A stretch of DNA of 64,000 nucleotides from Syntrophales bacterium (GTDB lineage: Bacteria; Desulfobacterota; Syntrophia; Syntrophales; PHBD01), in contig OY764159.1 in the NCBI GenBank assembly GCA_963668175.1, positions 2,048,001 to 2,112,000 of the forward strand, given 5' to 3'. Numbering within the stretch: position 1 is the first letter of the stretch; each line of letters begins with the position of its first letter. The notes below the pieces were generated by a model. The model ran no database searches. It was not told the origin of the DNA and worked only from the letters and a program-made list of their open reading frames with translations. Below are positions 3,652 to 49,928 of this stretch, piece after piece. Position numbers and translations under genes: made by a program.

Positions 3652-3838
3652 AGGCAGTTGAAAAACGCCCATCTGCCGTGTTGTTTATCACCTTCAGGTG
3701 ACGCTTCGTCCCTCGGATGCTCACGTACCCTTATGTACGCTCCGCTCCTCGGCCCTCGCGCGCCTTGCAGCTGGACGTTTTTGAGCACCCCCTATACAGG
3801 GGGCATGGCCTGCGCAACATCGCGTTTTTTGACAAGCG
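3652..3838. repeat. MITE-like intergenic repeat, copy 1
   Basis: Starts GGCAGTTGAAAAACGCCCATCTG, ends GTTTTTTGACAAG; homologous to 16644-16870 and 49418-49487. Confidence 0.75.
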
Positions 3839-16643: not shown

Positions 16644-16870
16644 CGGCTGTTGAAAAACGCCCATCTGTCGCGTTGTTTATCACCTTCAGGTGACGCCGCA
16701 AGCCTCGTCATTCGACATACTTTTATGTATGCCTCATTCCTCGCTGCGCCCCCCGCATGGGGGGGCTTTTGCGCGTCCCCTAAAGGGGATCAACCTTACA
16801 TCTGGACATTTTTGAACACCCCCTATGCAGGGGGCATGGCCTGCCCGAAATCGAGTTTTTCAACAAGCGT
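16644..16870. repeat. MITE-like intergenic repeat, copy 2, with four nested hairpins
   Basis: Terminal inverted repeat TGTTGAAAAAC...GTTTTTCAACA. Confidence 0.78.
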
Positions 16871-31564: not shown

Positions 31565-31648
31565 CTAAGAGGCGAGCCCGTCGGCATGGTAGTAATAGGG
31601 CGTAAAGCTTGCCCCGTTCTTTGCCTCCACCGCCAGCGGTTCGTCGAT
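31565..31648 (-). pseudogene. Seventh orphan Rhs stub
   Basis: IDEPLAVEAKNGASFTPYYYHADGLAS* with the same upstream motif as the other orphans. Confidence 0.85.
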
Positions 31649-31771: not shown

Positions 31772-32113
31772 TCATTTGGGTTTTCCATAGGAACCGTTCT
31801 GCCAAGATTGCAGTTCGTCAATTAATTCCTCCACAGTAATGACATCATCTAACTGTGTTTCGGGAAAAGAATACACTTCCCCAACAGATTTTTCATTGCT
31901 ATTCGAATTTGCGGGCACTTCAATACCGGCACCGCTGTATGGACCATATTCCAAATAAGATTCAGCATCCTGGAAAAACCATGAAGTAACATCTTGTGTC
32001 CCCTCAAGGTTCTTCCCGATAAATACTAAAGAATTAATAATCGGGTACTCAAAATTTTTGTCCAAAAAATGCAATTGGAAATATGGTTTGCCATAAATGA
32101 AATGCTTATTCAT
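31772..32113 (-). CDS. Putative immunity protein, cassette 6
   Basis: AT-rich ORF directly after the orphan tip; AGGAG RBS. Confidence 0.7.
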   Translation of the reverse strand: MNKHFIYGKPYFQLHFLDKNFEYPIINSLVFIGKNLEGTQDVTSWFFQDAESYLEYGPYSGAGIEVPANSNSNEKSVGEVYSFPETQLDDVITVEELIDELQSWQNGSYGKPK

Positions 32114-32154
32114 ATATGCTCCTTTGCTTTTTCGGAGACTGGATTATCCTATAA

Positions 32155-32853
32155 TCAAGGTACGAATACGGGACCCCTTGAAGGTGATCCGACCCCTTCA
32201 CCTTGTCCACCGAATGAACCGCCTGGCACGAGGGGCGGAAACAATCTCCACCATGATTTATCTTCATTATTTGTTTTAGGACAATCATCATCTCCGCATT
32301 CACAATTAATGGTCTTGTCGAAATCAAGTCTTTCAAGCACGGTTCCATTCTTCTCTTTAACTCGTCTGATCTTTTTTGTCCTCTGAACTTGACACGCCAA
32401 TACGCCCTTGTTCCCGCAACGTAATTTACAGACGTCCCAGTCTGGCTTCTTGCATGGTTCGTAAGTTGTGTTCTGGTTTTGTTTCGCGAATCCATTTGGA
32501 TCTACAGAATTAATCGGATCATTTTGGACGTAAGTAGAGAGATTCACATCCCCACCTGCAAACCCGATGGGGTCTTTCGTCACGAATCGTCCAGCCTGGG
32601 GATCGTAGTAACGGGCGCGGTAGAAATACATGGACGTCTCGGCGTCGTATTCCCGGCCGGTGAACATAAAGGGTTGGCTGACATTACCGGAGCCGGAAAC
32701 CGTGACATTCCCGAAGGCATCGTAGCCGTATGTCTGCACCATCGTTCCTGTTGCATCGCTCAATCCCGTAATCGATCCCAGCCCGTCGGCATGGTAGTAA
32801 TAGGGCGTATATCCCGCCCCGCTCTTCGCCTCCACCGCCAGCGGTTCGTCGAT
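32155..32853 (-). pseudogene. Orphan Rhs C-terminal fragment 6 (Cys-rich tip)
   Basis: Core IDEPL...RYYDP..GRF...DPIG...DPNG plus unique tip; no ATG. Confidence 0.88.
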
Positions 32854-32885
32854 GTCATATTTTCAAAGAACGGTTAGCTATCCGT

Positions 32886-33028
32886 AATTAAGTATACTGT
32901 CCCCCGAATTATCTGTCCCCCGAATTATCCTAGTTTTCAAAGAACTTTCAATTACATTTATCTCAATTAAGTACCGCGTCCCCGACCAGGGGACGGGTCC
33001 CCCGAATGGGGATGCTGTCCCCGGAATT
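32886..33028. repeat. REP-like spacer motif AATTAAGTA..TGCTGTCCCC(C/G)GAATT, empty and hairpin-filled copies
   Basis: Empty 32886-32910; filled 32965-33028; further filled copies at 34451-34516, 37101-37146, 39785-39850. Confidence 0.7.
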
Positions 33029-33171
33029 ATTCTGATGCAAAAAGCAGGGGAATAGAGTCCATCAAAGCAATGCCCCTGTGGCTTAGTCTCATTAGCATCA
33101 TCCTATCCTTCCGGTGTGTAGGGTGCTTATCTATCAATTCGGTACCCTCAGATTTATGGAATAAAAGGTCA

Positions 33172-33612
33172 TTAATCCTTGACTATTTCATACTTTCCAT
33201 TTACATCAGAAGGCCTCATTCCGTCAGGATAGGACACCCAGTAGAGATTAAGGTAAATATGTTTTCGATCTGTATCAACCCATGCATAACCAATATCCCA
33301 AATAGGTGTTTTACAGGATATCTTGTCAGGACTGTAAAAAAAGCCTTTTTGGTCACGGTAAGACCAATTCTCTCCTTTGCCGGTTAAGTTGATCGTATAA
33401 CGGCTATTTTCTTTTTTTAAAAAACCGTCAGCTGTGAATAAAGTCGTCTTATTAACTTCTATTTCCATAGTATATCCACCATCAGGATTTGTGCTGACTT
33501 TATAATTTATATCTTTAGCGGAACAATTTTCTACAATAATAAAATTTAAAAACAGAATTGATGCACTCAACAAAGGTATATATTTCATAATTCTCGTTTT
33601 CTTGTTTGACAT
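33172..33612 (-). CDS. Putative exported immunity protein, cassette 5
   Basis: Signal peptide; GGAGG RBS; follows tip. Confidence 0.72.
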   Translation of the reverse strand: MSNKKTRIMKYIPLLSASILFLNFIIVENCSAKDINYKVSTNPDGGYTMEIEVNKTTLFTADGFLKKENSRYTINLTGKGENWSYRDQKGFFYSPDKISCKTPIWDIGYAWVDTDRKHIYLNLYWVSYPDGMRPSDVNGKYEIVKD

Positions 33613-33616
33613 GTAA

Positions 33617-34414
33617 TTACCTCCCCGGACATGAACACTTTTCATGCCATCTATTCAACCATATTTTCGTCCATTCTTCTGCTCTACGCCATGCAGCATC
33701 ATCATTATCTGTGCTAAAGCCATCAAAAAAATGTCCAAAACCTAAGTTTTTCCAATACCGAAAAGGCATCCAACGATATCCTTTGGCAAAGTGCACAAAA
33801 TAATCTTGTCCACGATGCATAGCCCTTTGAAAATCATTACTGCTACAATTTGCGATTGCAGCTGATACATGTGCTTCTGACAAAGATAAATCGCGAAAAT
33901 GTCTTTCCGGATTACCAAATATTGTCGGCCCCGTTACGGGGTCTGTATCTTCAAGATAGTAGTCAAAAATATTAGAGCCTGAAAAATCCCTATGCCCTTT
34001 ATAGGCAGAACCTGGACCGCCTTTGTCAAATAACCCCAATGGATCATTTCCGTTTACGGGATCATTTGATACATAAGCATACTTGTTAATACCGCCTGCA
34101 AACCCTATCGGGTCCCTGGTCACGAATCGTCCTGCCTGGGGATCGTAGTATCTCGCCCGGCCCCCTATGCAGGGGGCGCAGTAGAAGTACATCTGTGTTT
34201 CCGCGTCGTACTCCCGGCCGGTGAACATGAACGGCTGGGCGACATTTCCGGAGCCGGAAACGGTGACATTTCCGAAGGCGTCGTAGCCGTATGTCTGCAC
34301 CATCGTTCCCGTCGCATCGCTCAATCCCGTGATCGAACCCAGGCCGTCGGCATGGTAGTAATAGGGCGTGAAACTGCTCCCCGCCTTGACTTCCACCGCC
34401 AGCGGCTCGTCGAT
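33617..34414 (-). pseudogene. Orphan Rhs fragment 5 (H..QD...H tip; carries 21-nt insertion)
   Basis: Rhs core with YFY-CAPCIGG-RARYY; DPLG; tip AMHRGQDYFVH. Confidence 0.88.
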
Positions 34415-34577
34415 TTATGTTTTCAAAGAACTTTAAATTGCATCTATCTCAATGAAGTACCGCGTCCCCTGACCAGGGGACGGGTCCCCCGAATGGGGGA
34501 TGCTATTCCCGGAGTTATTGTTTCCCCCGAATTATTTGAAGATGTCGAAAATATTTGCATCCAGGAAATATTATACA

Positions 34578-35090
34578 TCACTGTTCAGTCGTTACGTTAA
34601 TCGTACTTTGTACGTTAATTTCTAATTCTTGGATTTTTTGCATCGCATAACTATCACACCACTGTTCTTCCGCTTTCGACGAAGATCCGATTAATTTATT
34701 ATTTGAATAGTGTTCAGAATAAACTACATGTCCAATCTCGTGAAATAACAAGAATATAGCATAACGTTTTGCATCAGCTAATTTCCATTTTATCAATCTA
34801 GTTTTTTTGTCGACAATACCCGAGAAGCGCTGGATTTGGTTTATATATTCTTTTTCATCTGTAAGAATCAAACTACTATAATTCTTTAGGCAGAAATTAA
34901 TTCGTATGTCATAATAATTTCCCTTTTGAACAGTCCGTCCTTCTTGAGTTGTTCTTGTATTGCAGCCAAATTCAATTAGTCGTATTTTATTTATATCTTC
35001 AATTGAAACGACGTTCTTAACTTTTGCCGCTTCACTTTTCGATAATGGATATAAATATTCGGCGGACACTTTATTGTATATGATTTTCAT
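34578..35090 (-). CDS. Putative immunity protein with HExxH motif, cassette 4
   Basis: LLFHEIGH...EEQWCD.YA; AT-rich. Confidence 0.7.
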   Translation of the reverse strand: MKIIYNKVSAEYLYPLSKSEAAKVKNVVSIEDINKIRLIEFGCNTRTTQEGRTVQKGNYYDIRINFCLKNYSSLILTDEKEYINQIQRFSGIVDKKTRLIKWKLADAKRYAIFLLFHEIGHVVYSEHYSNNKLIGSSSKAEEQWCDSYAMQKIQELEINVQSTINVTTEQ

Positions 35091-35121
35091 GTTATTCCCG
35101 TTATGTGCATGATTTAGCTAC

Positions 35122-35856
35122 TTATCTTCTGCGCGGCCCTTTAGGTCCTTTCGGTACCCTATTATGTTCTTCACCGTCAGGATGCCCAACATTTCGTTCC
35201 CTTTCTCCACATTGTTTTCGTTCATCTGCTCCTTTACGCTTATTGGGATTTTCAGGTTTTGTATATTTATCCCTTCGGCTTTCCATCGGGGCATTGATCA
35301 AATCATATAATCCTTCACCAATGCCGCCTTCATAGAGTTGATGAGAAAGCCAATCTAAAATACCTACAGCATCATTACCGGCCTGTCGATATGCTTCATC
35401 TAATTGTTTGCTCTGCGGTGTTGGAAGTACAATTGGTAACGGTATAGGACCCGGTAATGCAATTGTCTGTAGACCCTCAGGATCATAATAATTCACAGGA
35501 TCATTTAGGACAAACGAAAATAGATTTACATCACCTGCCTCGAACCCGATGGGGTCTTTCGTCACGAATCGTCCCACAACGGGGTCATAGTAGCGGGCGC
35601 GGCCCCCTATGCAGGGGGCGCAGTAAAAATACATCCCGGTTTCCGCGTCGTACTCACGCCCTGTGAACATAAAGGGCTGGGCGACATTGCCGGAGCCGGA
35701 AACCGTGACATTCCCGAAGGCATCGTAGCCGTATGTCTGCACCATCGTTCCCGTCGCATCGCTCAATCCCGTGATCGAACCCAATCCGTCGGCGTGGTAG
35801 TAATAGGGCGTGAAACTGTTCCCCGCCTTCGCTTCCACCGCCAGCGGTTCGTCGAT
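35122..35856 (-). pseudogene. Orphan Rhs fragment 4 (basic tip; 21-nt insertion)
   Basis: Core plus DPEG; tip ERNVGHPDGEEHNRVPKG. Confidence 0.88.
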
Positions 35857-35903
35857 GTTCGATTGTCAAAGAACTATCAGTTTAGGAGAAGAGAAAATCA
35901 ACA

Positions 35904-36395
35904 TTATCGCGCATCAGCGATCTTTGCATCACGGAGGATACCTTCTTTTGATCGCTGCTTTCCCATGAGATAAACAGAAAATCCATCCCTTACATTTTCA
36001 CAGTCTTTAATCGCATCAGAATAATAGCCCGCCTGATAATTCGCTTCTGCACGATAGAAGAACGAACTTTCTGTATAGTAATGATCGCTTATATCCTTTT
36101 CAATTCTAATTACTTCAGTAAAATCTTTGATCGCATCATCAATATTTCCAGATATTAAATTCCAACGACCTCTCGAGAAATAATCATCAGGTTCTATTGG
36201 TCCTATATTAATTATGGTATTGATATCTTCTATTGCGTCATTCCAACGTTCCATTCGGGCTAATATAAATGATCTTTGTTTATAGCCATCCCGTTCATTA
36301 GGATGATTCAAAATAAAATCATTACATATTTTGAGACCTTTTTCATAGAGACCAGCTTTTGCATATTGATATGCATTTTGGAGATTATCTTTCAT
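35904..36395 (-). CDS. TPR-repeat putative immunity protein, cassette 3
   Basis: Repeated Y..R.......AI.D TPR units. Confidence 0.78.
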   Translation of the reverse strand: MKDNLQNAYQYAKAGLYEKGLKICNDFILNHPNERDGYKQRSFILARMERWNDAIEDINTIINIGPIEPDDYFSRGRWNLISGNIDDAIKDFTEVIRIEKDISDHYYTESSFFYRAEANYQAGYYSDAIKDCENVRDGFSVYLMGKQRSKEGILRDAKIADAR

Positions 36396-36409
36396 TGCGC
36401 ACCTCAAGA

Positions 36410-37063
36410 CTATGGATACCACTCAACTGGATTTCCACCACATCTTTGACTAACATGTCCACGAGCACAATCATGTATATTTCCGTATCCTCCGGTAATA
36501 CCCCTGCTGGGATTAGGCTTATTCAATTCTTTTCTGCACAATTCATAAGCATCTTCCCACTCTTTATCACAATCGTCTTTGCTATCTTCACATTTGGCCG
36601 TCTTAAATAATGGCTTGGGAGGATTCTTTATCAGTTGCGAGATCGCCAATATAACTGGCGGTCCATATACAACTGCCCATTGAATAATTTGAGTATAAAG
36701 ACCTTCTGGATCGTTATATCGAATGGAATTATTTTTAACATAAGTAAACAGATTAAAATCCCCGCCTGCGAACCCAATCGGGTCTTTCGTCAAGAATCGT
36801 CCTGCCTGGGGGTCGTAGTAACGGGCGCGGTAGAAATACATGGACGTCTCGGCGTCGTATTCCCGGCCGGTGAACATAAAGGGTTGGCTGACATTACCGG
36901 AGCCGGAAACCGTGACATTCCCGAAGGCATCGTAGCCGTATGTCTGCACCATCGTACCTGTCGCATCGCTCAATCCCGTAATCGATCCCAGGCCGTCGGC
37001 GTGGTAGTAATAGGGCGTATATCCTGCCCCGCTCTTCGCCTCCACCGCCAGCGGTTCATCGAT
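36410..37063 (-). pseudogene. Orphan Rhs fragment 3
   Basis: Core plus DPEG; tip CDKEW..AYELC...CARG.VSQRCGGNPV. Confidence 0.88.
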
Positions 37064-37167
37064 GTTAGATTTTCAAAGAACTTTAAATTACGTTTTTCTC
37101 AATTAATTACCGGGTCCCCTGACTAGGGGATGCTGTTCCCGAAATTACATAGACCCAAAAAATAAAA

Positions 37168-37509
37168 CTAATTACAGACTGTTTGTTTGCCGTCTCTCAT
37201 TAATTTATATTTTCCTTCAAGTACAAAACCGCTGCGTCCATCGGGTAAGCGTATTTCGATGATCATGTAGCTTTTCACATCTACGCATTTTGTAACTGGC
37301 ACACTTTGACTAGAAGACAGCGTTGCCATCGCATCAGGATGAGGCCATGTCATTGCCTCCTTTTCAGTTGCATAGACAGCCACTATATCTTCTGCAGTTA
37401 ATGTCATTCCGTTGGTCGACAGAATACGATGGATCGAAAAAGCTATCCCGAGTATGAGTAGAATCACTATAATTATGCTGATCAGCATCTTTTTTTTCAA
37501 TGTGCCCAT
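37168..37509 (-). CDS. Putative membrane-anchored immunity protein, cassette 2
   Basis: N-terminal TM; overlaps tip stop. Confidence 0.7.
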   Translation of the reverse strand: MGTLKKKMLISIIIVILLILGIAFSIHRILSTNGMTLTAEDIVAVYATEKEAMTWPHPDAMATLSSSQSVPVTKCVDVKSYMIIEIRLPDGRSGFVLEGKYKLMRDGKQTVCN

Positions 37510-38312
37510 GGCGCGTCTCTCCAATAATCGCGTGACGGACCTTGATAGAATTTTAATCTGTCAAGGTATATCGAGTTAAGTAAATCGTTGCCGATATTGA
37601 CTGGAAAATTTGAATCCGAGAAAGTCATTCCCGTGGCCTCTTTCAAGCATTCTTTATGCGGATCTCCACAGTTATTGGTAAATGTATTGTAATCCTTGCG
37701 TTTCTTTGCATAACATTCAATCAGTTTCTTTTCTTGATCAGGTGTAAGCCTAAGAATCGTACCAACACCGGAACGAAACTTCTCTTGGTTCTGAGCGTAG
37801 CTTGAAGCACTCGGATTACTATCCCATCCTCCTGGAGCCCAAGAGTAGTTTATTCCATTTACATTGGCTGATATATGACCAAATGAAGAACTACCCCATG
37901 TAACCGGCTGCCAGACAATTATTTCTGTATAGAATCCAAAGGAATCAACATAATTGACTGTGTTGTTTCCCACATACCCATACAAATTAAAATCCCCGCC
38001 CTCAAACCCGATGGGGTCTTTCGTCACGAATCGTCCTGCCTGGGGATCGTAGTATCTCGCCCGGCCCCCTATGCAGGGGGCGCAGTAGAAATACATGAAC
38101 GTTTCCGCGTCGTACTCACGGCCGGTGAACATGAAGGGCTGCGAGACGACGCCACTGGCCGTGACTTGGCCAAAGGCATCATAGCCGTATGTCTGGACCA
38201 TCGTTCCCGTTGCATCGCTCAATCCCGTGATCGATCCCAGGCCGTCGGCATGGTAGTAGTAGGGCGTATATCCCGCCCCGCTCTTGACCTCCACCGCCAG
38301 CGCCTCGTCGAT
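37497..38312 (-). pseudogene. Orphan Rhs fragment 2 (permuted papain-like tip; 21-nt insertion)
   Basis: Tip FGHI....G..YSW...Y....NNC (His before Cys). Confidence 0.88.
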
Positions 38313-38360
38313 TTATGTTTTCAAAGAACGGTTAGTTAACTTGGTTTGACCCGTTGAGCG

Positions 38361-38951
38361 TCAAATATAATCAAAAAAGAAATCATTAACTGATAGCAAG
38401 ATGTTTGAGCCACACACCACAAGCGGAGAATGTGGAGCATGCTCAGGTATTAAATCATCGAATAATTGAGCCATTTTCTCGGCACTTCGAATATCTTCAA
38501 TTAATCCATAACTGTTTAATATTAAATGATTGTCTTCAATTAGATTTTCCTTAGAAAAGCGCAAGCTAAATCCGTAAATCGCACTTGTCTGCGTCATAGG
38601 ATCAACTACATCAAACCCGACAAAATCCCAGCCCTCTCGCATGTCAATCTCCGGGAGAGGTTGTGGCCTTGAGACATTACCTCTTAACAGGCGTACAACT
38701 AAATCGGTCGGCAGATCGAATGCAATAATGCGGGCTCCTAAAGGAAATTCCAATGATGAGATACTCGATGGATCAACAAAAAAAAGGTTGATCCCAGATC
38801 GATACTCTCGAGAATTCTCATAGATATTCTCATAGCGCACATCATTGTCATATGAAGTCATAAATAAGTTCTTCAGAGATGAGCTCTTTCGAATGTCAAA
38901 TCCAATAACGGTTCTTTCTGCTGCACAGAGTTTATCGGTTTTTTCTATCAT
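38361..38951 (-). CDS. Putative immunity protein, cassette 1
   Basis: Starts 2 nt after tip stop; GFDI..W.FVGFDV..LN.YGL..PEHAP. Confidence 0.72.
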   Translation of the reverse strand: MIEKTDKLCAAERTVIGFDIRKSSSLKNLFMTSYDNDVRYENIYENSREYRSGINLFFVDPSSISSLEFPLGARIIAFDLPTDLVVRLLRGNVSRPQPLPEIDMREGWDFVGFDVVDPMTQTSAIYGFSLRFSKENLIEDNHLILNSYGLIEDIRSAEKMAQLFDDLIPEHAPHSPLVVCGSNILLSVNDFFFDYI

Positions 38952-38952
38952 C

Positions 38953-39747
38953 TCATCTGCTCCTACGGCCTTGAAAATCTGGGTAACTCGAACAGGGTTT
39001 CATGCCTGCCAGTGGTTCTTCCATAACACCAATACCAACCTTCCCACCAAGATATTGCCACTCACATTTCCCGGAAACCTTGAACATTTGGTAGATGTGA
39101 TAATGATTATTTAACGTTCCGTGACCATGTGTAGTGTGGGGTCCTTCGTAACACTTTGTTCCTACAGGTGGTTTGCAGTCTTGATCACTATTGCATTTCT
39201 TAGATGCAGTATCTTGTATCGAGTCAATCCAATTCTTGATATTTTCCCTTGGTCGACTAAAAAATTCTGTGAAGTCCTGCCATTGTTTCGGCGATAACTT
39301 TATTACGGGTATACCCCAAGATATGGGACCAAATCCTACTCGACTTCCTTCTGCGGAATCTAACCCGTCAGGGTCTATCAAGTTAACAGGCGAGTTCTCA
39401 ACATAAGCATAGAGATTAACATCCCCGCCTGCGAACCCGATGGGGTCTTTCGTCACGAATCGTCCAGCCTGGGGGTCGTAGTAACGGGCGCGGCCCCCTA
39501 TGCAGGGGGCGCAGTAAAAATACATCTGTGTTTCGGAATCGTACTCCCGGCCGGTGAACATGAACGGCTGGCTGACATTTCCGGAGCCGGAAACCGCGAC
39601 ATTCCCAAAGGCGTCGTAGCCGTATGTCTGCACCATCGTTCCCGTCGCATCGCTCAATCCCGTGATCGAACCCAGGCCGTCGGCATGGTAGTAATAGGGC
39701 GTATATCCCGCCCCGCTCTTCACTTCCACCGCCAGCGGCTCGTCGAT
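38953..39747 (-). pseudogene. Orphan Rhs fragment 1 (His-rich tip; 21-nt insertion)
   Basis: Core plus DPDG; tip HTTHGH...HYH. Confidence 0.88.
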
Positions 39748-39882
39748 GTTCGATTGTCAAAGAACTATCAATTACATCTATCTCAATGAAGTACCGCGTC
39801 CCCTGACCAGGGGACGGGTTCCCCGAATGGGGGATGCTGTCCCCGGAATTCTTGTCCTGCTTTCTTCAAGAAGTGGTCTATT

Positions 39883-40482
39883 TTAATTTGATTTTCTTCC
39901 AATATTTAGAATTATCTTTTTTAATAGTATTGCGCATGCAATAATAAAAATAGATTGAAACACCGCCAGCGCAGACATACTAAACCAAATACTCATCACT
40001 CCTTGAATTGCATAAGGGAACAAATTTACAAAGTATTCCCTTATTATACTGGAGATATCTATTAATACAGTTGGAGCAAGATTGACGAACATATTTGATG
40101 GAACAATTACAGGGAAATAGGTTACATAAACTACAATATCAGCGCCGTTTGATCTCTCCCAGTGAGACATGCCCATTGAAAACGACAGGAAGAATAATAA
40201 CGCAGAAATATCAATAGCGAACCAGATAACCATTAATTTATAAAGTCGTTTCCGGCTGATATAAAGAACAGTAGAAATTATCCAAACAAACCATACAAAC
40301 GGTATATATAAGACCAGCCAAGCGAAAAGAGTCTTCTCCGTACCAGCAAAAAAGAAGCTTATAAAAGGCGCGAGAATAGCGATAATGGTAATAACGATCA
40401 GGAAATTCATGAAAGCATCTTCAATACTAAAACGGCGGAGTGAGTAAAATCTATCTTTTATAATAGTACTAAGCCATTTCAT
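39883..40482 (-). CDS. Multi-TM cognate immunity protein of full-length Rhs
   Basis: ATGA overlap with Rhs stop; about 5 hydrophobic segments; AT-rich. Confidence 0.78.
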   Translation of the reverse strand: MKWLSTIIKDRFYSLRRFSIEDAFMNFLIVITIIAILAPFISFFFAGTEKTLFAWLVLYIPFVWFVWIISTVLYISRKRLYKLMVIWFAIDISALLFFLSFSMGMSHWERSNGADIVVYVTYFPVIVPSNMFVNLAPTVLIDISSIIREYFVNLFPYAIQGVMSIWFSMSALAVFQSIFIIACAILLKKIILNIGRKSN

Positions 40483-43400
40483 TGGAAGCATTCCTTTCTG
40501 CATGAATCATAAATGCCCTGCTGAACACGCTTACAATCTGCACCGTATTTCACACTGTAAAACAATACTTCTTGTTCTAATCTTTGCCATAGCCTTTCCG
40601 CACACTTGTCCATGCACTTGTTATTGTCATCTGCACCACAGACTGATTTTCCGTGACTAACATTTTCCCCGTCTTTCAAAATCTTTCCTTTTACGATACC
40701 GATAATTGCATTATCTATCCTGGAATTAGGATCTCTGCCATATCCGCGACACACTTGCTTCCCGTCTGAGCCAGTCCAGCAATGATATTCATGTGCCGCC
40801 GGACCAACCTGAGCACCCCAAAGAGCATCCAAGCCTGAGCTGCATTGCTGTAATAGTCCTTCTGGATCTATAAAATTCGCTGGATTGTTTTGTACATATC
40901 CAAACAGATTTATGTTTCCACCCCTGAACCCAATGGGGTCTTTCGTCACGAATCGTCCTGCCTGGGGATCGTAGTATCTCGCGCGGTAGAAGTACATTCC
41001 GGTTTCGGAATCGTACTCCCGGCCGGTGAACATGAATGGCTGGCTGACGCCGCCTGTCGCAACGACATTTCCGAAGGCATCGTAGCCGTATGTCTGCACC
41101 ATCGTACCCGTCGCATCGCTCAATCCCGTGATCGATCCCAGGCCGTCGGCATGGTAGTAATAGGGCGTATAGCTTGCCCCGCTCTTTACCTCCACCGCCA
41201 GCGGTTCGTCGATGTTCGGCCCGTGGGTATACCGGGCTGTTATTTCATTGCTACTATTATACTCTAAGATAATCGATTTGTCATCAAAAATGTAATACGT
41301 TGTACGCGGGCAGGTGTTCGGGCTTGTGCAGAGATTTCCGATGCCGTCGCTGACGACGGTCTTCGACACCCTGCGGCCGAAGGGGTCGTAGGCGAAAGTC
41401 AACTGCCGGACCTGGCCGTTCCTGTTCATCTGAATGCCCGTCAGGCGGTTCTCGTCGTCGTACGTGTAGGTCGTCGTTTCGTTCCCGGGGGGGACGGCGT
41501 CGGCGTTTTTCGTCAGGCGGTTGCCCACCTCGTCGTAGGTGTAGGCCTCCGTCTGGTGGACGCCCCCCGTGGGCGCGGCCTGCGTCAGGCGGTAGACGTC
41601 GTCGTAGGCATAGGCGTAGCTCTCCGCCGGTGCGGTCCGGGTGAGGCGGTTGCCCGCGTTGTCGTGGGTGTAGGTTACGCTGTCGACGGGCGCGCTGTTC
41701 TTCGTTGTCGCAATCCCCGTGAGGCGGCTGCTGGCGTCGTAGCCGTAGGCGGAGACGGTCCCGTTGGGGAGGGTCCGGGACATTCTCCTGTTCGCCGCGT
41801 CGTAGGCGAAGTCGAAGTTCCCCAGGGCCGTGGCGATACGGGCGGGGAGGCCGTTGTTGTCGTAGGTGTAGGTCAGGGTCCTGTTCTCCGGCGTGACCAT
41901 CGTCTGCCGGTTGCCCGCCGCGTCGTAGGTGTACCGGATCGTCCGGCTGTTCCCATCGACGATTTGCGTGACGCGGTTGTTCGCGTCGTAGGTGAAGGTA
42001 TAGGCTATGGCGGCGTTCCCCGCATAGGTCATGTTGCCCGCGTCGTCGTACTGGAAAGTCGCCGTGGAGCTGTCCGAATAGGTCTTGCCCGTGAGGCGGT
42101 TGTTGCCGTCGTACGTATAGGTGACGGTCTTGCTGTCGGGCCGGGTCAGGGTGTGCAGGTTGCCGTTCGCATCGTACGTATACGTCGTCGTCTTGCTCAG
42201 CGGGTCCGTCTCCCTGGTCAGTTCCCCGCCGGTGTTGTATTCGTACGCGGTGATATGGCTTTTCGCGTCCGTCACCGCCGTCAGCTTGTCCACGCCCGTG
42301 CCGCAGCCGGAGCAGCCGGAGCCGCTGTAGGCGAGATTGGTGATGTTGCCCAGGGCGTCGGTGATCCGCGTGAGCTGGTCGCGGTAATTGTAGAGGTAGT
42401 GAGCGGCTTTCGTGTTGGCGTCGGTGGACGACAGGCGGTTGCCCTTATAGTCGTAGGTATAGGCCGTGACGCGGTTACCGGGGTCCGTTGCCTGCGTGAG
42501 CTGGTTCAGGCTGTTGTACTGGAAATACGTGGTGTTGCCCAGGGCGTCCTTCTGCGAAAGCATGTTGCCCAGGCCGTCGTAAGTCATCTCGACGACGCCC
42601 AGCTTCGGGTCGGTGACGAACCGCAGGTTGTCGTACTGGTCGTATTCGAGGGTCGTGGTTTTGTTCAGGGGGTTCGTGATGCTTGCGATGTTCCCCCTGG
42701 CGTCGTAACCATAGTACGTGACGGCGTTCCCCGGCGCGGCGACGGACGTCAGGTTGCCCGCCGTGTCGTAGCCGTACTGCGTGACGTTGCTCCGGGGGTC
42801 GGTGACGGTCTCCACCAGGTTCAGGGCGTTGTACGTGTACGCCGTGGTCTTGTTCAGCGGGTCCGTCGCGGTGTGGAGGTTGCCGTTGGCATAGTAGGTG
42901 TATGTCGTGTAGCCCCCGCCGGGGTCCGTCTTTTTCGTGATGTTCCGGTTGGCGTCGTATTCGTAGGTCGTCTTGTGGCCCTGCGGGTCCGTCTTCTCGA
43001 TGAGGACGCCCAGGGCCTGATCGTACTTGTACGTCCAGACGCCGTTGTCCCTCTCCGTCACGAGCGTCGTGGCCGTCGCCGGGTCGTACGCCACGGTCCG
43101 CGTCTTGCTTTCCGGGTCCAGGGCCTGCGTCACTTTATGATCGGCGTCGTAGGTGTACCGGGTCTCGTTGCCGTCCGGGTCGGTCTTCGTCAGCATGAAG
43201 AGCTGGGCGTCGTACGTGAAGCCCCAGGTCTTTGTCCCCATGGGGGTCTGGGAGGCGATTTGCGTGAGGGCGTCGCCCGTGTACGTGAAGGTGTGGGTGT
43301 TGTTGTTGGGGTCGGTGATCGTGTCGATCCGGTTCCCCGCGTTGTACGCGAAGCCGATGGACTTGCCCCTGGGGTCCGTCACGGTTTCGAGGTAGCCGTT

Positions 43401-44903
43401 GCCGTCGTATGTCAGGGAGAGGGTGTTGCCGTTCCTGTCGGCGATGCTCGCGAGCTTATCGGCGTTGAACGTATAGACGGTGCCGTCCCTGAAGGCGAGG
43501 GTGCCCACGTCGTCCTGGTTTACGCTGAGCACCGGGTAGGGGGAGTATTCGGGCCTGTAGACGCCGCCGTCCGGATACAGGACGGTCTTACCGCCGTCCC
43601 CCCAGACGACCGTGTAGTAATCGTTGTTCTGGAGGCTGATATTATAGGAATGCGTCCAGCCCGTGGCGAGGAGGCCGTTGGCCCTGTCCGTGCTGTTGTA
43701 GGTCAGGGCGAGGTCCGGCATGAGGCGGGAATTGGGCACCCTGAAGAGCGTCTGGGTGTGTTGAAGATTGCCGCTCGCCACATTCGCCGTCGAGCCGAAA
43801 ACGAGCTTGAGCATCTTGGGGCCGCACTTGTCGCCATCGCTGCTTTCCGTAATAGTGAAGGTTGTGGTGGCAATTGCCGTACATGATCCTACTGTGGCGG
43901 TCAGGACGGCGGCATAGGTATTTCCGGGATTCAGCGGTCTGGTGCTTGCTATGCTTTTCCAGGTTCCGTCGGCGCTGGTGCCCGTACCGCTCAGGATCGG
44001 TACGTCGTCTACTGCGATATTCCAGGTTATCCCGGCGGGATTCGAGCCGGCGATGGTGCCGTTGAAAGTGATCGTTCCGCCGGTGCTGGGATCGATCTTT
44101 GTGGACGAAGCGCTAAACGACGAGATCGAAAGGCTGCACGGGGACGTGAGGGCCGCGGGACAGCAGCCCGCGGTTTTCATGGCAGCCGTTCTTTTATCGT
44201 AAGGACTATGTTCAATGTTATAGCGTGCGGACCCGGGAAGAAAATAATAGGCACAGGTGTTTCCATCTCTACGGCATAACATGAGATTTATACCATCTCC
44301 ACCTGCAGTATACAAATCGTTATAGGCTGTGCTGTCATGCACACAATAACTATAATCTCCTGGATGACAGCCCCTGTCATTACAGATATCGGCGTCCTTG
44401 GTCCCGCTTATGCAGCACTTTGCCGCCGATTCTGTTCCATCGCACTTATACCCGGTGGTGCATATACTGGCCGTATAAACACTACATCCTGTACAATATT
44501 GTGGACAGCCAAATTGGCAATCCGAATATTTGCTAACGGTAAAATCGGAAAAGGTGCGATACGCTTCTGCCGTTGAGGTGGAACCGTTCACCGCAATCTG
44601 CACTTCAGCAATCTGGCCGCATTCGTCGGTGACGCGGACGACGGGATTGCTGGCGCAGTTGGGATTCGATGAGGGGGCCGTGTAGACGCCGGCCTGTGTG
44701 ATGCTCCCGCCGCCGGTAACCGACCAGGTTTTGGTTCCGTCGCACCCGCCGGAGGCCGTCAGCGTCTGGCTGGTGTTGACGGCCATGGTCGGCTGCGGCA
44801 CCGAAATCGTCAGCGGAACGGCCCAGGCCGCGCCTGTCCAAAGCAGAAGAAAACCGTACATAACGGCCGCCGGCAGAAGATATCGTCTCGCCTGTCTTTT
44901 CAT
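40479..44903 (-). CDS. Full-length Rhs/YD-repeat polymorphic toxin with Sec-type signal peptide
   Basis: MKRQARR..AAWA signal; ANVASGNL..YNS..GWTHSY (DUF6531-like); many YD repeats; FTGREYD..RYYDP..GRF..DPEG; variable tip. Confidence 0.95.
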   Translation of the reverse strand: MKRQARRYLLPAAVMYGFLLLWTGAAWAVPLTISVPQPTMAVNTSQTLTASGGCDGTKTWSVTGGGSITQAGVYTAPSSNPNCASNPVVRVTDECGQIAEVQIAVNGSTSTAEAYRTFSDFTVSKYSDCQFGCPQYCTGCSVYTASICTTGYKCDGTESAAKCCISGTKDADICNDRGCHPGDYSYCVHDSTAYNDLYTAGGDGINLMLCRRDGNTCAYYFLPGSARYNIEHSPYDKRTAAMKTAGCCPAALTSPCSLSISSFSASSTKIDPSTGGTITFNGTIAGSNPAGITWNIAVDDVPILSGTGTSADGTWKSIASTRPLNPGNTYAAVLTATVGSCTAIATTTFTITESSDGDKCGPKMLKLVFGSTANVASGNLQHTQTLFRVPNSRLMPDLALTYNSTDRANGLLATGWTHSYNISLQNNDYYTVVWGDGGKTVLYPDGGVYRPEYSPYPVLSVNQDDVGTLAFRDGTVYTFNADKLASIADRNGNTLSLTYDGNGYLETVTDPRGKSIGFAYNAGNRIDTITDPNNNTHTFTYTGDALTQIASQTPMGTKTWGFTYDAQLFMLTKTDPDGNETRYTYDADHKVTQALDPESKTRTVAYDPATATTLVTERDNGVWTYKYDQALGVLIEKTDPQGHKTTYEYDANRNITKKTDPGGGYTTYTYYANGNLHTATDPLNKTTAYTYNALNLVETVTDPRSNVTQYGYDTAGNLTSVAAPGNAVTYYGYDARGNIASITNPLNKTTTLEYDQYDNLRFVTDPKLGVVEMTYDGLGNMLSQKDALGNTTYFQYNSLNQLTQATDPGNRVTAYTYDYKGNRLSSTDANTKAAHYLYNYRDQLTRITDALGNITNLAYSGSGCSGCGTGVDKLTAVTDAKSHITAYEYNTGGELTRETDPLSKTTTYTYDANGNLHTLTRPDSKTVTYTYDGNNRLTGKTYSDSSTATFQYDDAGNMTYAGNAAIAYTFTYDANNRVTQIVDGNSRTIRYTYDAAGNRQTMVTPENRTLTYTYDNNGLPARIATALGNFDFAYDAANRRMSRTLPNGTVSAYGYDASSRLTGIATTKNSAPVDSVTYTHDNAGNRLTRTAPAESYAYAYDDVYRLTQAAPTGGVHQTEAYTYDEVGNRLTKNADAVPPGNETTTYTYDDENRLTGIQMNRNGQVRQLTFAYDPFGRRVSKTVVSDGIGNLCTSPNTCPRTTYYIFDDKSIILEYNSSNEITARYTHGPNIDEPLAVEVKSGASYTPYYYHADGLGSITGLSDATGTMVQTYGYDAFGNVVATGGVSQPFMFTGREYDSETGMYFYRARYYDPQAGRFVTKDPIGFRGGNINLFGYVQNNPANFIDPEGLLQQCSSGLDALWGAQVGPAAHEYHCWTGSDGKQVCRGYGRDPNSRIDNAIIGIVKGKILKDGENVSHGKSVCGADDNNKCMDKCAERLWQRLEQEVLFYSVKYGADCKRVQQGIYDSCRKECFQ

Positions 44904-49417: not shown

Positions 49418-49487
49418 AGGCTGTTGAAAAACGCCCATCTGTCGCTTGTCACCTTCAGGTGACGCTGTGCCCCCTGCATAGGGGGCT
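49418..49487. repeat. MITE-like repeat, truncated copy 3
   Basis: AGGCTGTTGAAAAACGCCCATCTGTCGC plus hairpins TCACCTTCAGGTGA and GCCCCCTGCATAGGGGGC. Confidence 0.72.
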
Positions 49488-49928
49488 CATAAACTGGATT
49501 TCCAAAAAGCTGCTAAATGGATGGGGGGAGGGTCTCTTCCTCCCCCCAAAGTCCCTGCAACAATGGTTTCCGCTGCTTCTTGCGGTGAAGCGTAACCGCC
49601 GGCGGGGAGGCGTACTCCCATGCAGCCGCGCGTTGCTGCGTCTTGACGACATTTTAAACGACGCCGGATTCGTAGGTTGGGCGGGTGTTCCGGGGCCGGC
49701 TACCGGGGACCCTTTGCCGCCGACGCCCGGAACGACATCTCCCGCCCCTGTCCGCACTGCTTTGCCCTGCGTCCTGGGCCTGCCCTCCCGGGTTTGGCTC
49801 CGACTTTGCCACCGGTGGAGGTCGCGCCTATGGTCTGCACTGGGGTATCGCCTACCCTCGCGGCATCGGTATGAATGGCGCGTTCTCGCGGGCGAACTGC
49901 TTTGTCTTTCCTCTTGTGTCTGGCAGGT

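What the first reader, a model, noticed from the sequence alone, without database searches (positions are those of the whole stretch)
34160..39513. Identical 21-nt hairpin inserted in frame at one site in four Rhs cores
Seen: TGCGCCCCCTGCATAGGGGGC (coding strand) sits between the Y and R codons of YFY|RARYY at 34160-80, 35602-22, 38064-84 and 39493-513, adding CAPCIGG. Orphans 3 and 6 and the full-length gene keep the empty site, and there is no target duplication. Flanking codons differ among filled copies (CGG GCG AGA vs CGC GCC CG(C/T)). The same hairpin occurs in unrelated non-coding contexts (3788-3804, 16819-35, 49466-86). At 16745-66 it shows a compensatory T-A to C-G stem change. Inference: a minimal mobile hairpin, spread here by repeated insertion or gene conversion, possibly by a HUH/RAYT-type enzyme acting in trans; no such enzyme is in the window.
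Basis: partly seen in the sequence, partly recalled or inferred. Interest (0 to 1): 0.8.

Follow-up and report, generated by a model that had tools for sequence, protein, structure and literature searches.

The report
In-frame hairpin repeat in Rhs orphans
A tiny 21-base hairpin repeat that normally sits between genes in this bacterium has been copied, in frame, into the same spot of four spare toxin-gene cassettes, giving a clean natural example of a very small DNA element that moves without any recognisable transposase.

Summary
Four exact copies of TGCGCCCCCTGCATAGGGGGC lie in frame between YFY and RARYY in four of the six orphan rhs modules. The full-length gene and orphans 3 and 6 are empty.

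The insert is derived and recent. None of the other 119 best homologues and none of 83 metagenomic core motifs carries it. The orthologue of orphan 2 in another assembly, with an identical toxin domain, lacks exactly these 7 residues.

The hairpin is the genome's dominant perfect hairpin (28 exact copies, next best 5). It was not found in 40 relatives. Elsewhere it is a module of an older palindromic MITE-like scaffold, which an outgroup carries without any hairpin. Scaffold copies show filled and empty states at four sites, one holding the identical 21-mer. So a 20-21-nt unit (4-5-nt leader plus 16-nt hairpin) inserts without target duplication.

The four filled cores differ by 10-23% in their flanks and by 0 of 21 bases in the insert, and the flanks are mosaic. 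One or two insertions spread by recombination is the most likely history.

This is a new member of a known kind (intragenic REP-like elements and very small dispersed repeats). Interest is moderate.

The parts
39493..39513 (-). 21-nt hairpin unit in orphan 1 (flank haplotype A: TTT TAC | CGC GCC CGT)
   Evidence: Exact match. In frame as CAPCIGG. The orthologous toxin modules P0006 and P0002 lack it.
38064..38084 (-). 21-nt hairpin unit in orphan 2 (flank haplotype B: TTC TAC | CGG GCG AGA)
   Evidence: Orthologue P0013 is in the same 90% cluster, has an identical toxin domain and shows a 7-residue gap exactly here.
35602..35622 (-). 21-nt hairpin unit in orphan 4 (haplotype A: TTT TAC | CGC GCC CGC)
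34160..34180 (-). 21-nt hairpin unit in orphan 5 (haplotype B)
40479..44903 (-). Full-length rhs/YD-repeat gene (1474 aa). Empty site between 40986 and 40985 (TAC|CGC GCG AGA).
   Evidence: The C-terminal core aligns to solved Rhs structures without a gap at this site.
36410..37045 (-). Orphan 3. Empty site 36830|36829 (TAC|CGC GCC CGT), which is the unfilled form of haplotype A.
32155..32835 (-). Orphan 6. Empty site 32620|32619.
31772..40503 (-). Array of six orphan rhs C-terminal modules, each followed by a small ORF that is a putative immunity gene (39883-40503, 38361-38951, 37168-37524, 35904-36422, 34578-35090, 33172-33645, 31772-32113). G+C is low, 41-47%.
   Evidence: This is the only rhs locus with this core in the genome.
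16646..16868 (+). Composite MITE-like scaffold copy. It carries the variant unit CTGCG+CCCCCCGCATGGGGGG (16744-16764, scaffold site 3) and a reverse-oriented unit CCCCCTATGCAGGGGG+CATG (16819-16838, site 1).
49420..49510 (+). Short MITE-like copy with the hairpin at 49470-49485
3700..3837 (+). MITE-like copy with a 1-mismatch hairpin variant CCCCCTATACAGGGGG at 3788-3803 (boundaries approximate)

Best explanation
The 21 bases are one unit of a lineage-specific, REP-like hairpin repeat. A unit is a 4-5-nt leader C(T)GCG / CRYG plus the 16-nt hairpin CCCCCTGCATAGGGGG, 20-21 nt in all.

In this genome the units have been inserted, without target duplication and in either orientation, into an older palindromic MITE-like scaffold and into a few other intergenic places.

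One such unit (possibly two) landed in an orphan rhs core, directly 5' of a target (CCGCGCC/G) that mimics the leader-plus-stem start of another unit. The position is the turn of the last YD-repeat beta-hairpin. The unit is 21 nt long and stop-free in that frame, so it adds seven loop residues (CAPCIGG) and leaves the toxin cassette open.

Homologous recombination and gene conversion among the seven paralogous core ends then carried the insert into four modules. The same process shuffles these cores and lets orphans replace the expressed toxin. The 21-nt heterology itself probably limited conversion tracts, so the flanks were overwritten right up to its edges.

Shown: the insert is derived, recent, identical in all four copies and part of a genome-wide unit family with empty/filled pairs; no Y1/HUH transposase is present. 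Inferred: the number of insertions, the role of conversion, the insertion mechanism (host replication/repair template switching guided by the CCGCGCC microhomology, or an unidentified enzyme), and neutrality for the protein.
For: Derived and recent:
- 110 of the 120 best homologues have zero spacing at YFY|RARYY. Seven of the 9 regex misses are also visibly contiguous. Only P0001, which is o5 itself, has the 7 residues.
- All 83 of 83 core motifs in 78 metagenome loci are uninterrupted, and none of those loci holds the hairpin.
- o2 against P0013 is 91% identical overall. The toxin domain is identical, and one 7-residue gap falls exactly at CAPCIGG. o1 against P0006 shows the same gap.
- The solved Rhs structures 7q97 and 8h8b align through the site without a gap.

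Unit family:
- The 16-mer is the most abundant perfect 6-bp-stem hairpin in the genome, with 28 copies against 5 for the next. There are 37 copies including variants.
- It was found in 0 of 40 relatives.
- Filled/empty paralogues exist at four scaffold sites, with inserts of 20 or 21 nt. Site 4 is filled by the exact Rhs 21-mer and has at least 5 empty copies.
- The outgroup G016 scaffold is colinear and empty at all four sites.
- The hairpin is 93% identical among 10 site-1 copies, against 53-65% for their flanks.

Recombination:
- The filled cores differ by 24-54 of 238 aligned left-flank columns but by 0 of 21 in the insert.
- The flanks are mosaic. o1 and o5 share positions -16..-13. o4 and o5 share -204..-190. 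o2, o5 and the full-length gene share the right flank.
- The sister assembly pairs the o2 toxin with an o5-like core.

Target mimicry: CCGCGCCC follows 5 of the 37 hairpins, including tandem arrays. It pre-exists at the empty o3 and o6 sites, and its genome frequency is 4.4e-5 per position.

No transposase.
Against: - Haplotypes A (o1, o4) and B (o2, o5) share only positions -3 to +2 around the insert. A single insertion therefore needs conversion tracts ending within 3 nt of both edges, or flank overwriting, plus a C>G change at +3 that is seen only in filled copies.
- Two independent hits at the same site explain this equally well.
- The B-type target (CCGCGCG in the full-length gene) also resembles the leader, which would favour repeated targeting.
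- No DNA of the empty orthologues could be obtained, so the ancestral codons are unknown.
- The mechanism is not demonstrated. The left junctions show no microhomology, and the 20-nt and 21-nt units differ in length.
- Perfect conservation of the insert could instead reflect selection for a function.
- The model of the loop position has low confidence: pLDDT is below 50 across residues 54-146.
Confidence: 0.6

Rival explanations
1. Repeated site-specific insertion. The 20-21-nt unit is actively mobilised by an unidentified trans-acting activity that is not a Y1/HUH enzyme. This activity prefers to insert 5' of CCGCGC, next to leader-like sequence. It hit the Rhs core independently at least twice (haplotypes A and B), perhaps four times.
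For: - A and B share only -3..+2 around the insert.
- Both empty haplotypes carry CCGCGC at the junction.
- The same unit boundaries are seen at unrelated sites: scaffold site 4 has the identical 21-mer, and site 3 has CTGCG plus the variant hairpin.
- Tandem 21-nt arrays at genome 2851424-61 look like insertion next to an existing unit.
- The hairpin is far better conserved than its scaffold.
Against: - No candidate enzyme was found, and no IS-sized partner of the scaffold TIRs was evident.
- CCGCGC occurs 3438 times in the genome but only a handful of sites are filled.
- Other filled sites lack this motif.
- Unit length varies between 20 and 21 nt.
- Rampant recombination among the cores offers a simpler route.
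Confidence: 0.25
2. Selected cis-function. The hairpin is kept in orphan cores because it does something there. It could be a DNA or RNA structure that stimulates or limits recombination with the expressed rhs gene, or that stabilises or attenuates transcripts. Alternatively the CAPCIGG loop could modulate autoproteolysis and so release of the toxin.
For: - There are 0 differences in 21 nt among cores that differ by 10-23% nearby.
- Compensatory stem variants occur genome-wide.
- The hairpin is stable, at -8.5 to -10.3 kcal/mol as ssDNA.
- The site lies about 17 residues before the first DPxG motif of the Rhs core end.
Against: - The insert is absent from the expressed gene, from two orphans, from all sister-assembly modules seen and from all other homologues.
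- No U-tract follows the hairpin on either strand (and the sequences).
- Fold z-scores against shuffles are only -1.6 to -2.0.
- Recency alone explains the identity.
Confidence: 0.08
3. Assembly or polishing artefact that copied a repeat k-mer into the rhs array.
For: The public contigs laid on the region break in the repeated core ends. The listed pieces do not visibly bridge the four sites. The runs that hold the region come from the sample that probably gave the assembly.
Against: - There are four insertions at the exact codon junction, all in frame, in four distinct unique contexts of a single-contig genome.
- All 30 bins are covered in two runs and no 21-nt 'left out' variant is listed.
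- The o2 and o5 proteins with the insert are on record in the public protein collection from the genome record.
Confidence: 0.03

Closest known systems
Intragenic REP / palindromic elements (Rickettsia RPEs; intragenic GTAG and CGTC REPs of Di Nocera, De Gregorio and Rocco 2013, PMC3733652; passages read)
   Same: A short G+C-rich stem-loop repeat that is normally extragenic is found inside a known protein-coding gene with the reading frame kept. That paper also reports REP families (CGTC type) with no dedicated transposase, and single units inside genes.
   Different: There is no GTAG or CGTC tag; the leader is C(T)GCG or CRYG. The stem is only 6-7 bp. The copy number is only 37. The same homologous site is filled in four paralogous toxin cassettes. 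The units are nested in an older MITE-like scaffold.
REPIN-RAYT systems (Bertels and Rainey 2011, PMC3116915; abstract and passages read)
   Same: An over-represented 16-mer palindrome, with some inverted doublets (for example genome 2563176/2563205), tandem clusters and better conservation than the surrounding DNA.
   Different: No RAYT is present in the genome. The inserted entity is a single hairpin, not a doublet. The paper regards singlets as immobile remnants.
Small dispersed repeats of cyanobacteria (Elhai et al. 2008, Genome Res 18:1484). The paper is not held. Its existence is confirmed from a reference list. Its content is recalled, not read.
   Same: As recalled: 21-27-nt hairpin-forming units inferred to be mobile from filled/empty comparisons, often nested inside larger repeats, with no known enzyme.
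   Different: The sequence family and the phylum are unrelated. Here the decisive case is an in-frame insertion in a polymorphic toxin gene family. I could not check that paper's criteria.
BIMEs and BOX-type mosaic repeats (recalled; BIMEs are mentioned in PMC3116915)
   Same: Intergenic mosaic elements built from variable numbers and orientations of small hairpin modules on a conserved frame.
   Different: Here an outgroup shows the frame without any module, which gives the polarity: the modules were added later.
Rhs orphan toxin cassettes (Poole et al. 2011, PMC3150448; Koskiniemi et al. 2014, PMC3967940; only search listing and abstract starts seen)
   Same: A full-length rhs gene is followed by C-terminal toxin/immunity modules. 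These keep about 240-330 nt of core homology and recombine with the main gene.
   Different: No hairpin-repeat insertion in the homology tract has been described in what I saw. I did not read these papers in full.

Membership tests
REP / REPIN-RAYT | Short imperfect palindrome, repeated and mainly extragenic | tested here: met
   There are 37 copies. All non-Rhs copies are intergenic or at ORF extremes. It is the dominant hairpin of the genome.
REP / REPIN-RAYT | Conserved GTAG (or CGTC) tetranucleotide at one end | tested here: not met
   The leaders are CTGCG, CCGCG, CGTG, CGCG, CATG, CACG and TATG, and the trailers are variable. The tag definition is from PMC3733652.
REP / REPIN-RAYT | Cognate Y1 (HUH) transposase gene in the genome | tested here: not met
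   PF01797 and NF033573 give 0 matches in the 100%-complete single-contig genome. The controls match in 6 of 14 and 5 of 14 genomes.
REP / REPIN-RAYT | Inverted doublet as the replicative unit | tested here: not met
   The Rhs inserts and scaffold sites 2-4 hold single units. A doublet is seen only at some loci.
IS200/IS605-type single-strand transposition | No target duplication | tested here: met
   Filled/empty comparisons at 5 sites
IS200/IS605-type single-strand transposition | Fixed tetra- or pentanucleotide target next to one end, and strand bias relative to replication | tested here: not met
   The left flanks are TTCTA(C), GCGCTG(C), CCTCG, CAGGC and GCCTG. Orientation is 18 + against 17 - on the replichore that holds 35 of the 37 copies.
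MITE | Terminal inverted repeats plus target-site duplication, derived from an IS | tested here: not met
   The unit has no TIR beyond its own stem and no TSD. The host scaffold does have TIR-like ends, but no IS-sized partner was found.
In-frame intragenic palindromic element (RPE-like) | A repeat family member lies inside an otherwise conserved ORF, in frame and without a stop, and is absent from orthologues | tested here: met
Cyanobacterial small dispersed repeats | 21-27-nt unit, mobility inferred from filled/empty sites, nesting in larger repeats (criteria recalled) | not testable with these tools
   The paper is not held. The size, the filled/empty pairs and the nesting seen here fit what I recall.
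Rhs orphan toxin/immunity cassette | Core-end homology to a full-length rhs gene, a DPxG...DPxGL core end, a divergent C-terminal domain and a downstream small ORF | tested here: met

The most novel reading that the evidence does not exclude
The 20-21-nt unit is itself a mobile entity, among the smallest known. It moves without any HUH/Y1 transposase, either through an undescribed activity or through host replication/repair that copies a hairpin unit to sites mimicking the start of another unit (CCGCGC). On this reading it struck the same codon junction of the Rhs core at least twice independently. The outgroup-polarised empty/filled pairs at five or more sites would make this genome a tractable system for the long-open question of how transposase-less REP-like repeats spread.
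Probability: 0.25. Interest if true: 0.7.

Novelty: new member of a known kind. Interest (0 to 1): 0.45.

Why it matters
How very small palindromic repeats multiply when no RAYT is present is unresolved. The 2013 survey I read leaves this open for the CGTC REPs.

This locus gives unusually clean evidence that a single 20-21-nt hairpin unit can be added to DNA. There is an unambiguous ancestral state (a universally conserved Rhs motif), an orthologous empty allele in a near-identical strain, identical unit boundaries at unrelated sites, and an outgroup scaffold without modules.

It also shows that the homology tract used for Rhs toxin switching can pick up and pass on passenger sequence. If an orphan recombined upstream of the insert, a seven-residue loop would be placed close to the autoproteolytic core end of the expressed toxin.

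For annotation, it warns that such inserts weaken profile matches. The filled orphans lose the weak YD-shell hit that the empty ones keep.

Tried and rejected
- RAYT/IS200 TnpA and TnpB searches of the own genome gave no match, so the HUH model was rejected for this genome.
- Rfam on the whole window gave no family.
- Search for an autonomous IS with the scaffold's TIRs. The only IS-sized pair I inspected encloses a deoxyhypusine synthase gene.
- The metagenome scan for Rhs relatives returned only loci at 41-71% identity. The near-identical contigs that encode the empty orthologues were not delivered, so their DNA could not be compared.
- The GTDB-wide scan for the 17-mer found the same hairpin core in unrelated repeat families and in one CRISPR repeat. 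None of the four multi-copy groups whose flanks I printed has this genome's leader or flanks; the remaining single-copy loci I did not inspect. It is therefore no evidence of relatedness.
- Sequencing runs: no RNA holder is listed. Four runs of one sample hold the region as contigs, but these break in the core repeats. The raw-read run X6 laid 0 reads. The small-share run X5 gave only short pieces and an uninterpretable joint with a 22-letter side. Read-level confirmation and allele polymorphism remain untested.
- The first version of the empty-site script timed out. It was rerun on the repeat loci only, so empty counterparts outside those 47 regions were not sought.
- Ungapped flank comparison was invalid upstream of a 6-nt indel. 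It was replaced by an aligned version.
- The structure model of orphan 1 has mean pLDDT 53.5. It places the insert between two strands but is too uncertain to count as evidence.
- Earlier notes of this scan returned nothing.
- The Elhai et al. 2008 paper could not be read.
- Rejected readings: a terminator (no U-tract), an ancient conserved Rhs feature, and a strict target-site duplication.

Full report
**Observation**

The 21-mer TGCGCCCCCTGCATAGGGGGC occurs four times exactly, all on the minus strand, at 34160-80, 35602-22, 38064-84 and 39493-513. Near-copies lie at 49466-86 (1 mismatch) and 16745-65 (3 mismatches). That is 6 matches against 0.01 expected from shuffles.

The region is a classical rhs locus on the minus strand. 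It holds:
- a 1474-aa YD-repeat gene at 40479-44903;
- six orphan C-terminal modules: o1 38953-39729, o2 37497-38294, o3 36410-37045, o4 35122-35838, o5 33617-34396 and o6 32155-32835;
- a small ORF after each module.

In o1, o2, o4 and o5 the 21 nt sit exactly between the TAC of YFY and the first R codon of RARYY, and read CAPCIGG. The full-length gene, o3 and o6 are uninterrupted there. This is the only rhs locus with this core in the 4.57-Mb single-contig genome. It has seven core ends plus a 73-nt remnant.

**The insert is derived and young**

I searched 5.8 billion proteins with the o1 core and checked the 120 best hits:
- 110 have YFY and RARYY adjacent;
- 7 of the 9 regex misses are visibly contiguous variants;
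- only P0001, which is o5 itself, has the seven residues.

All 83 core motifs in 78 metagenome loci are uninterrupted, and none of those loci holds the hairpin. Solved Rhs structures align through the site without a gap.

Orthologous modules in other assemblies are empty.
- P0013 falls in the same 90% cluster as o2. Its toxin domain is identical, and a single 7-residue gap falls exactly at CAPCIGG.
- P0006 and P0002 carry the o1 toxin without the insert.
- The five modules from one 85.6-kb contig that I saw (P0002, P0003, P0005, P0010, P0013) are all empty.

So CAPCIGG is not a feature of Rhs proteins. It arose after the split from a very close relative.

**What the 21 nt are**

Genome-wide there are 37 copies of the 16-nt hairpin core, counting close variants. 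Of these, 28 are the exact CCCCCTGCATAGGGGG. That makes it the most abundant perfect 6-bp-stem hairpin in the genome, with the next at 5 copies. Five copies carry the doubly compensated stem CCCCCCGCATGGGGGG and two are C.A intermediates. The 18-mer was not found in 40 relatives, allowing up to 1 mismatch; the genome is the only one of its genus in the set.

All non-Rhs copies are intergenic or at the extreme ends of stop-to-stop frames. Nearly all lie inside a composite, palindromic MITE-like repeat with ends GCTGTTGAAAAAC...GTTTTTCAACAAGC. That repeat gave 49 BLAST segments in about 30 loci.

The scaffold is older than the hairpin.
- Its terminal block is present in 8 of 8 genomes of the same family and in one genome of another family.
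- In the seven relatives' loci I printed, the stretches shown show no module.
- A five-sequence alignment shows the outgroup element colinear with the G000 copies and empty at every place where the G000 copies carry a hairpin module.

**Unit and insertion sites**

I compared each hairpin copy with paralogous scaffold copies. This gives filled/empty pairs at four scaffold sites.

| Site | Sequence at the junction | Insert |
|---|---|---|
| 1 | acaggc\|tgttcaaaaat | 20 nt, CRYG plus hairpin |
| 2 | agcctg\|ttcaaaatcga | 20 nt |
| 3 | ctcattcctcg\|gcttttgcgcg | 21 nt, CTGCG plus the variant hairpin (window 16744-64); at least 8 empty copies |
| 4 | gcgttgcgctg(c)\|(c)aagcctcgtc | 21 nt; at least 5 empty copies |

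At site 4 the insert is letter for letter the Rhs 21-mer, with the same one-base ambiguity of placement. The exact 21-mer occurs 7 times in the genome.

Two tandem units with a 21-nt period lie in an otherwise unrelated intergenic region at genome 2851424-61, and a solitary unit lies at 2371583. None of the sites shows a target duplication or a shared target word, and units occur in both orientations. The hairpin is far better conserved than its surroundings: 93% against 53-65% mean pairwise identity in 10 site-1 copies.

**Enzyme**

The genome is 100% complete in one contig. It has no match to PF01797, NF033573 (IS200 TnpA) or PF07282 (TnpB), while the control genomes do match.

Further points against a RAYT/HUH agent:
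- The unit has neither of the REP tags (GTAG, CGTC) defined in PMC3733652.
- Cumulative GC skew puts the origin near 0.56 Mb and the terminus near 2.89 Mb. Of the 35 copies on that replichore, 18 are + and 17 are -, so there is no strand bias.
- I found no IS-sized partner of the scaffold ends.

The RAYT/HUH proposal is thus not supported, and the agent is unknown.

One clue is target mimicry. The empty A-type Rhs site reads TAC|CGCGCCCG. The 8-mer CCGCGCCC that follows the inserted hairpin is the same 8-mer that follows it in tandem arrays, where it is leader CCGCG plus the first Cs of the next stem. It follows 5 of the 37 hairpins, and its genome frequency is 4.4e-5 per position. The filled o1/o4 allele shares 28 consecutive bases with the array at genome 2576018.

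This fits two readings. One is a preference for inserting next to unit-like sequence. The other is templated copying from an array with re-annealing on this microhomology. The left junctions show no homology, and neither mechanism is demonstrated.

**How four cores came to carry it**

After alignment, the four filled cores differ from one another at 24-54 of 238 left-flank columns and at 7-21 of 66 right-flank positions. They differ at 0 of 21 positions in the insert.

The flanks are mosaic:
- o1 and o5 share the ACAG patch at -16..-13;
- o4 and o5 share -204..-190;
- o2 and o5 share -238..-235 and, with the full-length gene, the right flank;
- o1 groups with o3 and o6 on the right.

The sister assembly even pairs the o2 toxin with an o5-like core. 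Recombination among the core ends is therefore frequent, as expected for orphan cassettes that replace the expressed toxin by homologous recombination (background: PMC3967940 and PMC3150448, listing and abstract starts only).

There are two filled haplotypes.
- Haplotype A (o1, o4) shares -13..+8.
- Haplotype B (o2, o5) shares -6..+41.
- A and B share only -3..+2.

A single insertion then requires very short conversion tracts. More plausibly, the flanks were overwritten by empty donors up to the edge of the 21-nt heterology. It also requires one C>G change at +3. Two independent insertions are the alternative. This is credible because both empty haplotypes read CCGCGC at the junction.

My estimate is about 0.6 for one insertion, or at most two, followed by recombinational spread. 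I give about 0.25 to an actively targeted, repeatedly inserting element.

**Consequences**

The insert falls in the last YD repeat (MYFY-RARYYDPxxGRF), about 17 residues before the first DPxG of the DPIGF...DPxGL core end.

The low-confidence model of o1 places it in a loop between strands 69-73 and 81-85. Its mean pLDDT is 53.5 and the region is below 50, so this is only a hint.

Only one of the six reading frames of the unit contains a stop (read directly from the 21-mer). A 21-nt unit therefore keeps the cassette open. The 20-nt form would not, which may be why only a 21-nt unit is seen here. All four filled cassettes remain open through their toxin domains.

The hairpin is stable, at -8.5 to -10.3 kcal/mol as single-stranded DNA. 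It is not followed by a U-tract. I see no evidence for a function and regard it as a tolerated passenger. A cis-role in recombination or expression remains possible at about 0.08.

**Assembly check**

Public contigs from the probable source sample cover all 30 bins, and no 21-nt deletion variant is listed. However, the pieces shown break inside the core repeats, and the one raw-read run laid no reads. Read-level support is therefore untested. An artefact is very unlikely given four in-frame insertions in four unique contexts.

**Comparison and novelty**

REP-like stem-loops inside genes with the frame preserved, and REP families without a dedicated transposase, are described in PMC3733652 (passages read). 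REPINs need RAYTs and doublets (PMC3116915), which this element lacks.

The closest parallel I recall is the 21-27-nt small dispersed repeats of cyanobacteria (Elhai et al. 2008). I could confirm it only as a citation, not read it.

This is a new member of that known but mechanistically unexplained kind. It is notable for its clean polarity, the identical unit boundaries at unrelated sites, and its spread through a polymorphic-toxin cassette array.

Noticed in passing
window 16646-16868, 49420-49510, about 3700-3837; genome-wide about 30 loci: A palindromic MITE-like scaffold with ends GCTGTTGAAAAAC...GTTTTTCAACAAGC and a core of roughly 125 nt forming a long imperfect hairpin. Its terminal block is conserved in 8 of 8 genomes of the family and in one genome of another family of the order. 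No Rfam family matches and no autonomous partner was found.
   Followed up: partly
genome 2166818, 1987143, 2870355, 2575990; window 16680-16695, 16779-16790: Other small hairpin modules populate the same scaffold and are absent from the outgroup copy: CCCCCTTCAGGGGG/CCCCCTGAAGGGGG, CACCTTCAGGTG, CCCCCCGAATGGGGGG and CCCCTAAAGGGG. At least one looks like an 18-nt unit with leader CTTG and has filled/empty forms.
   Followed up: partly
whole genome: Thirty-five of the 37 hairpin copies lie between 1.32 and 2.87 Mb, on the replichore running from the skew minimum (about 0.56 Mb) to the maximum (about 2.89 Mb). Only 2 lie on the other replichore. The scaffold copies show the same concentration. 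This is unexplained.
   Followed up: no
L079-L150 (other species): The same 17-mer GCCCCCTGCATAGGGGG is the core of unrelated multi-copy repeats in a Dehalococcoidia MAG (including 36-nt tandem arrays), in Dialister succinatiphilus and in a Nitrospirae MAG. It is also part of a CRISPR repeat in an Oscillospiraceae MAG. This is apparently convergent use of one hairpin.
   Followed up: partly
window about 31575-31647 (-): A 73-nt remnant, 94.5% identical to the start of the rhs core homology tract, lies downstream of the last orphan/immunity pair. It is a truncated seventh cassette boundary.
   Followed up: no
window 38431 (inside ORF 38361-38951, -): All contigs of two public runs lack 2 letters here relative to the window (depth with the change equals total depth: 21.6 of 21.6 and 58.8 of 58.8). 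This could be a 2-nt assembly error or a variant. It would shift the frame near the 3' end of the putative immunity ORF of orphan 1.
   Followed up: no
P0002, P0013 against window o1, o2, o5: In the sister assembly the o2 toxin is joined to an o5-like core. P0002 has the first part of the o1 toxin followed by a different C-terminus. This is direct evidence of cassette and core shuffling between close strains.
   Followed up: partly
window 32000-40000: The orphan array has 41-47% G+C against 55.8% for the genome, and the toxin and immunity ORFs have no Pfam match except a TPR protein at 35904-36422. The empty cores keep a weak TEN_YD-shell hit that the filled cores lose.
   Followed up: no
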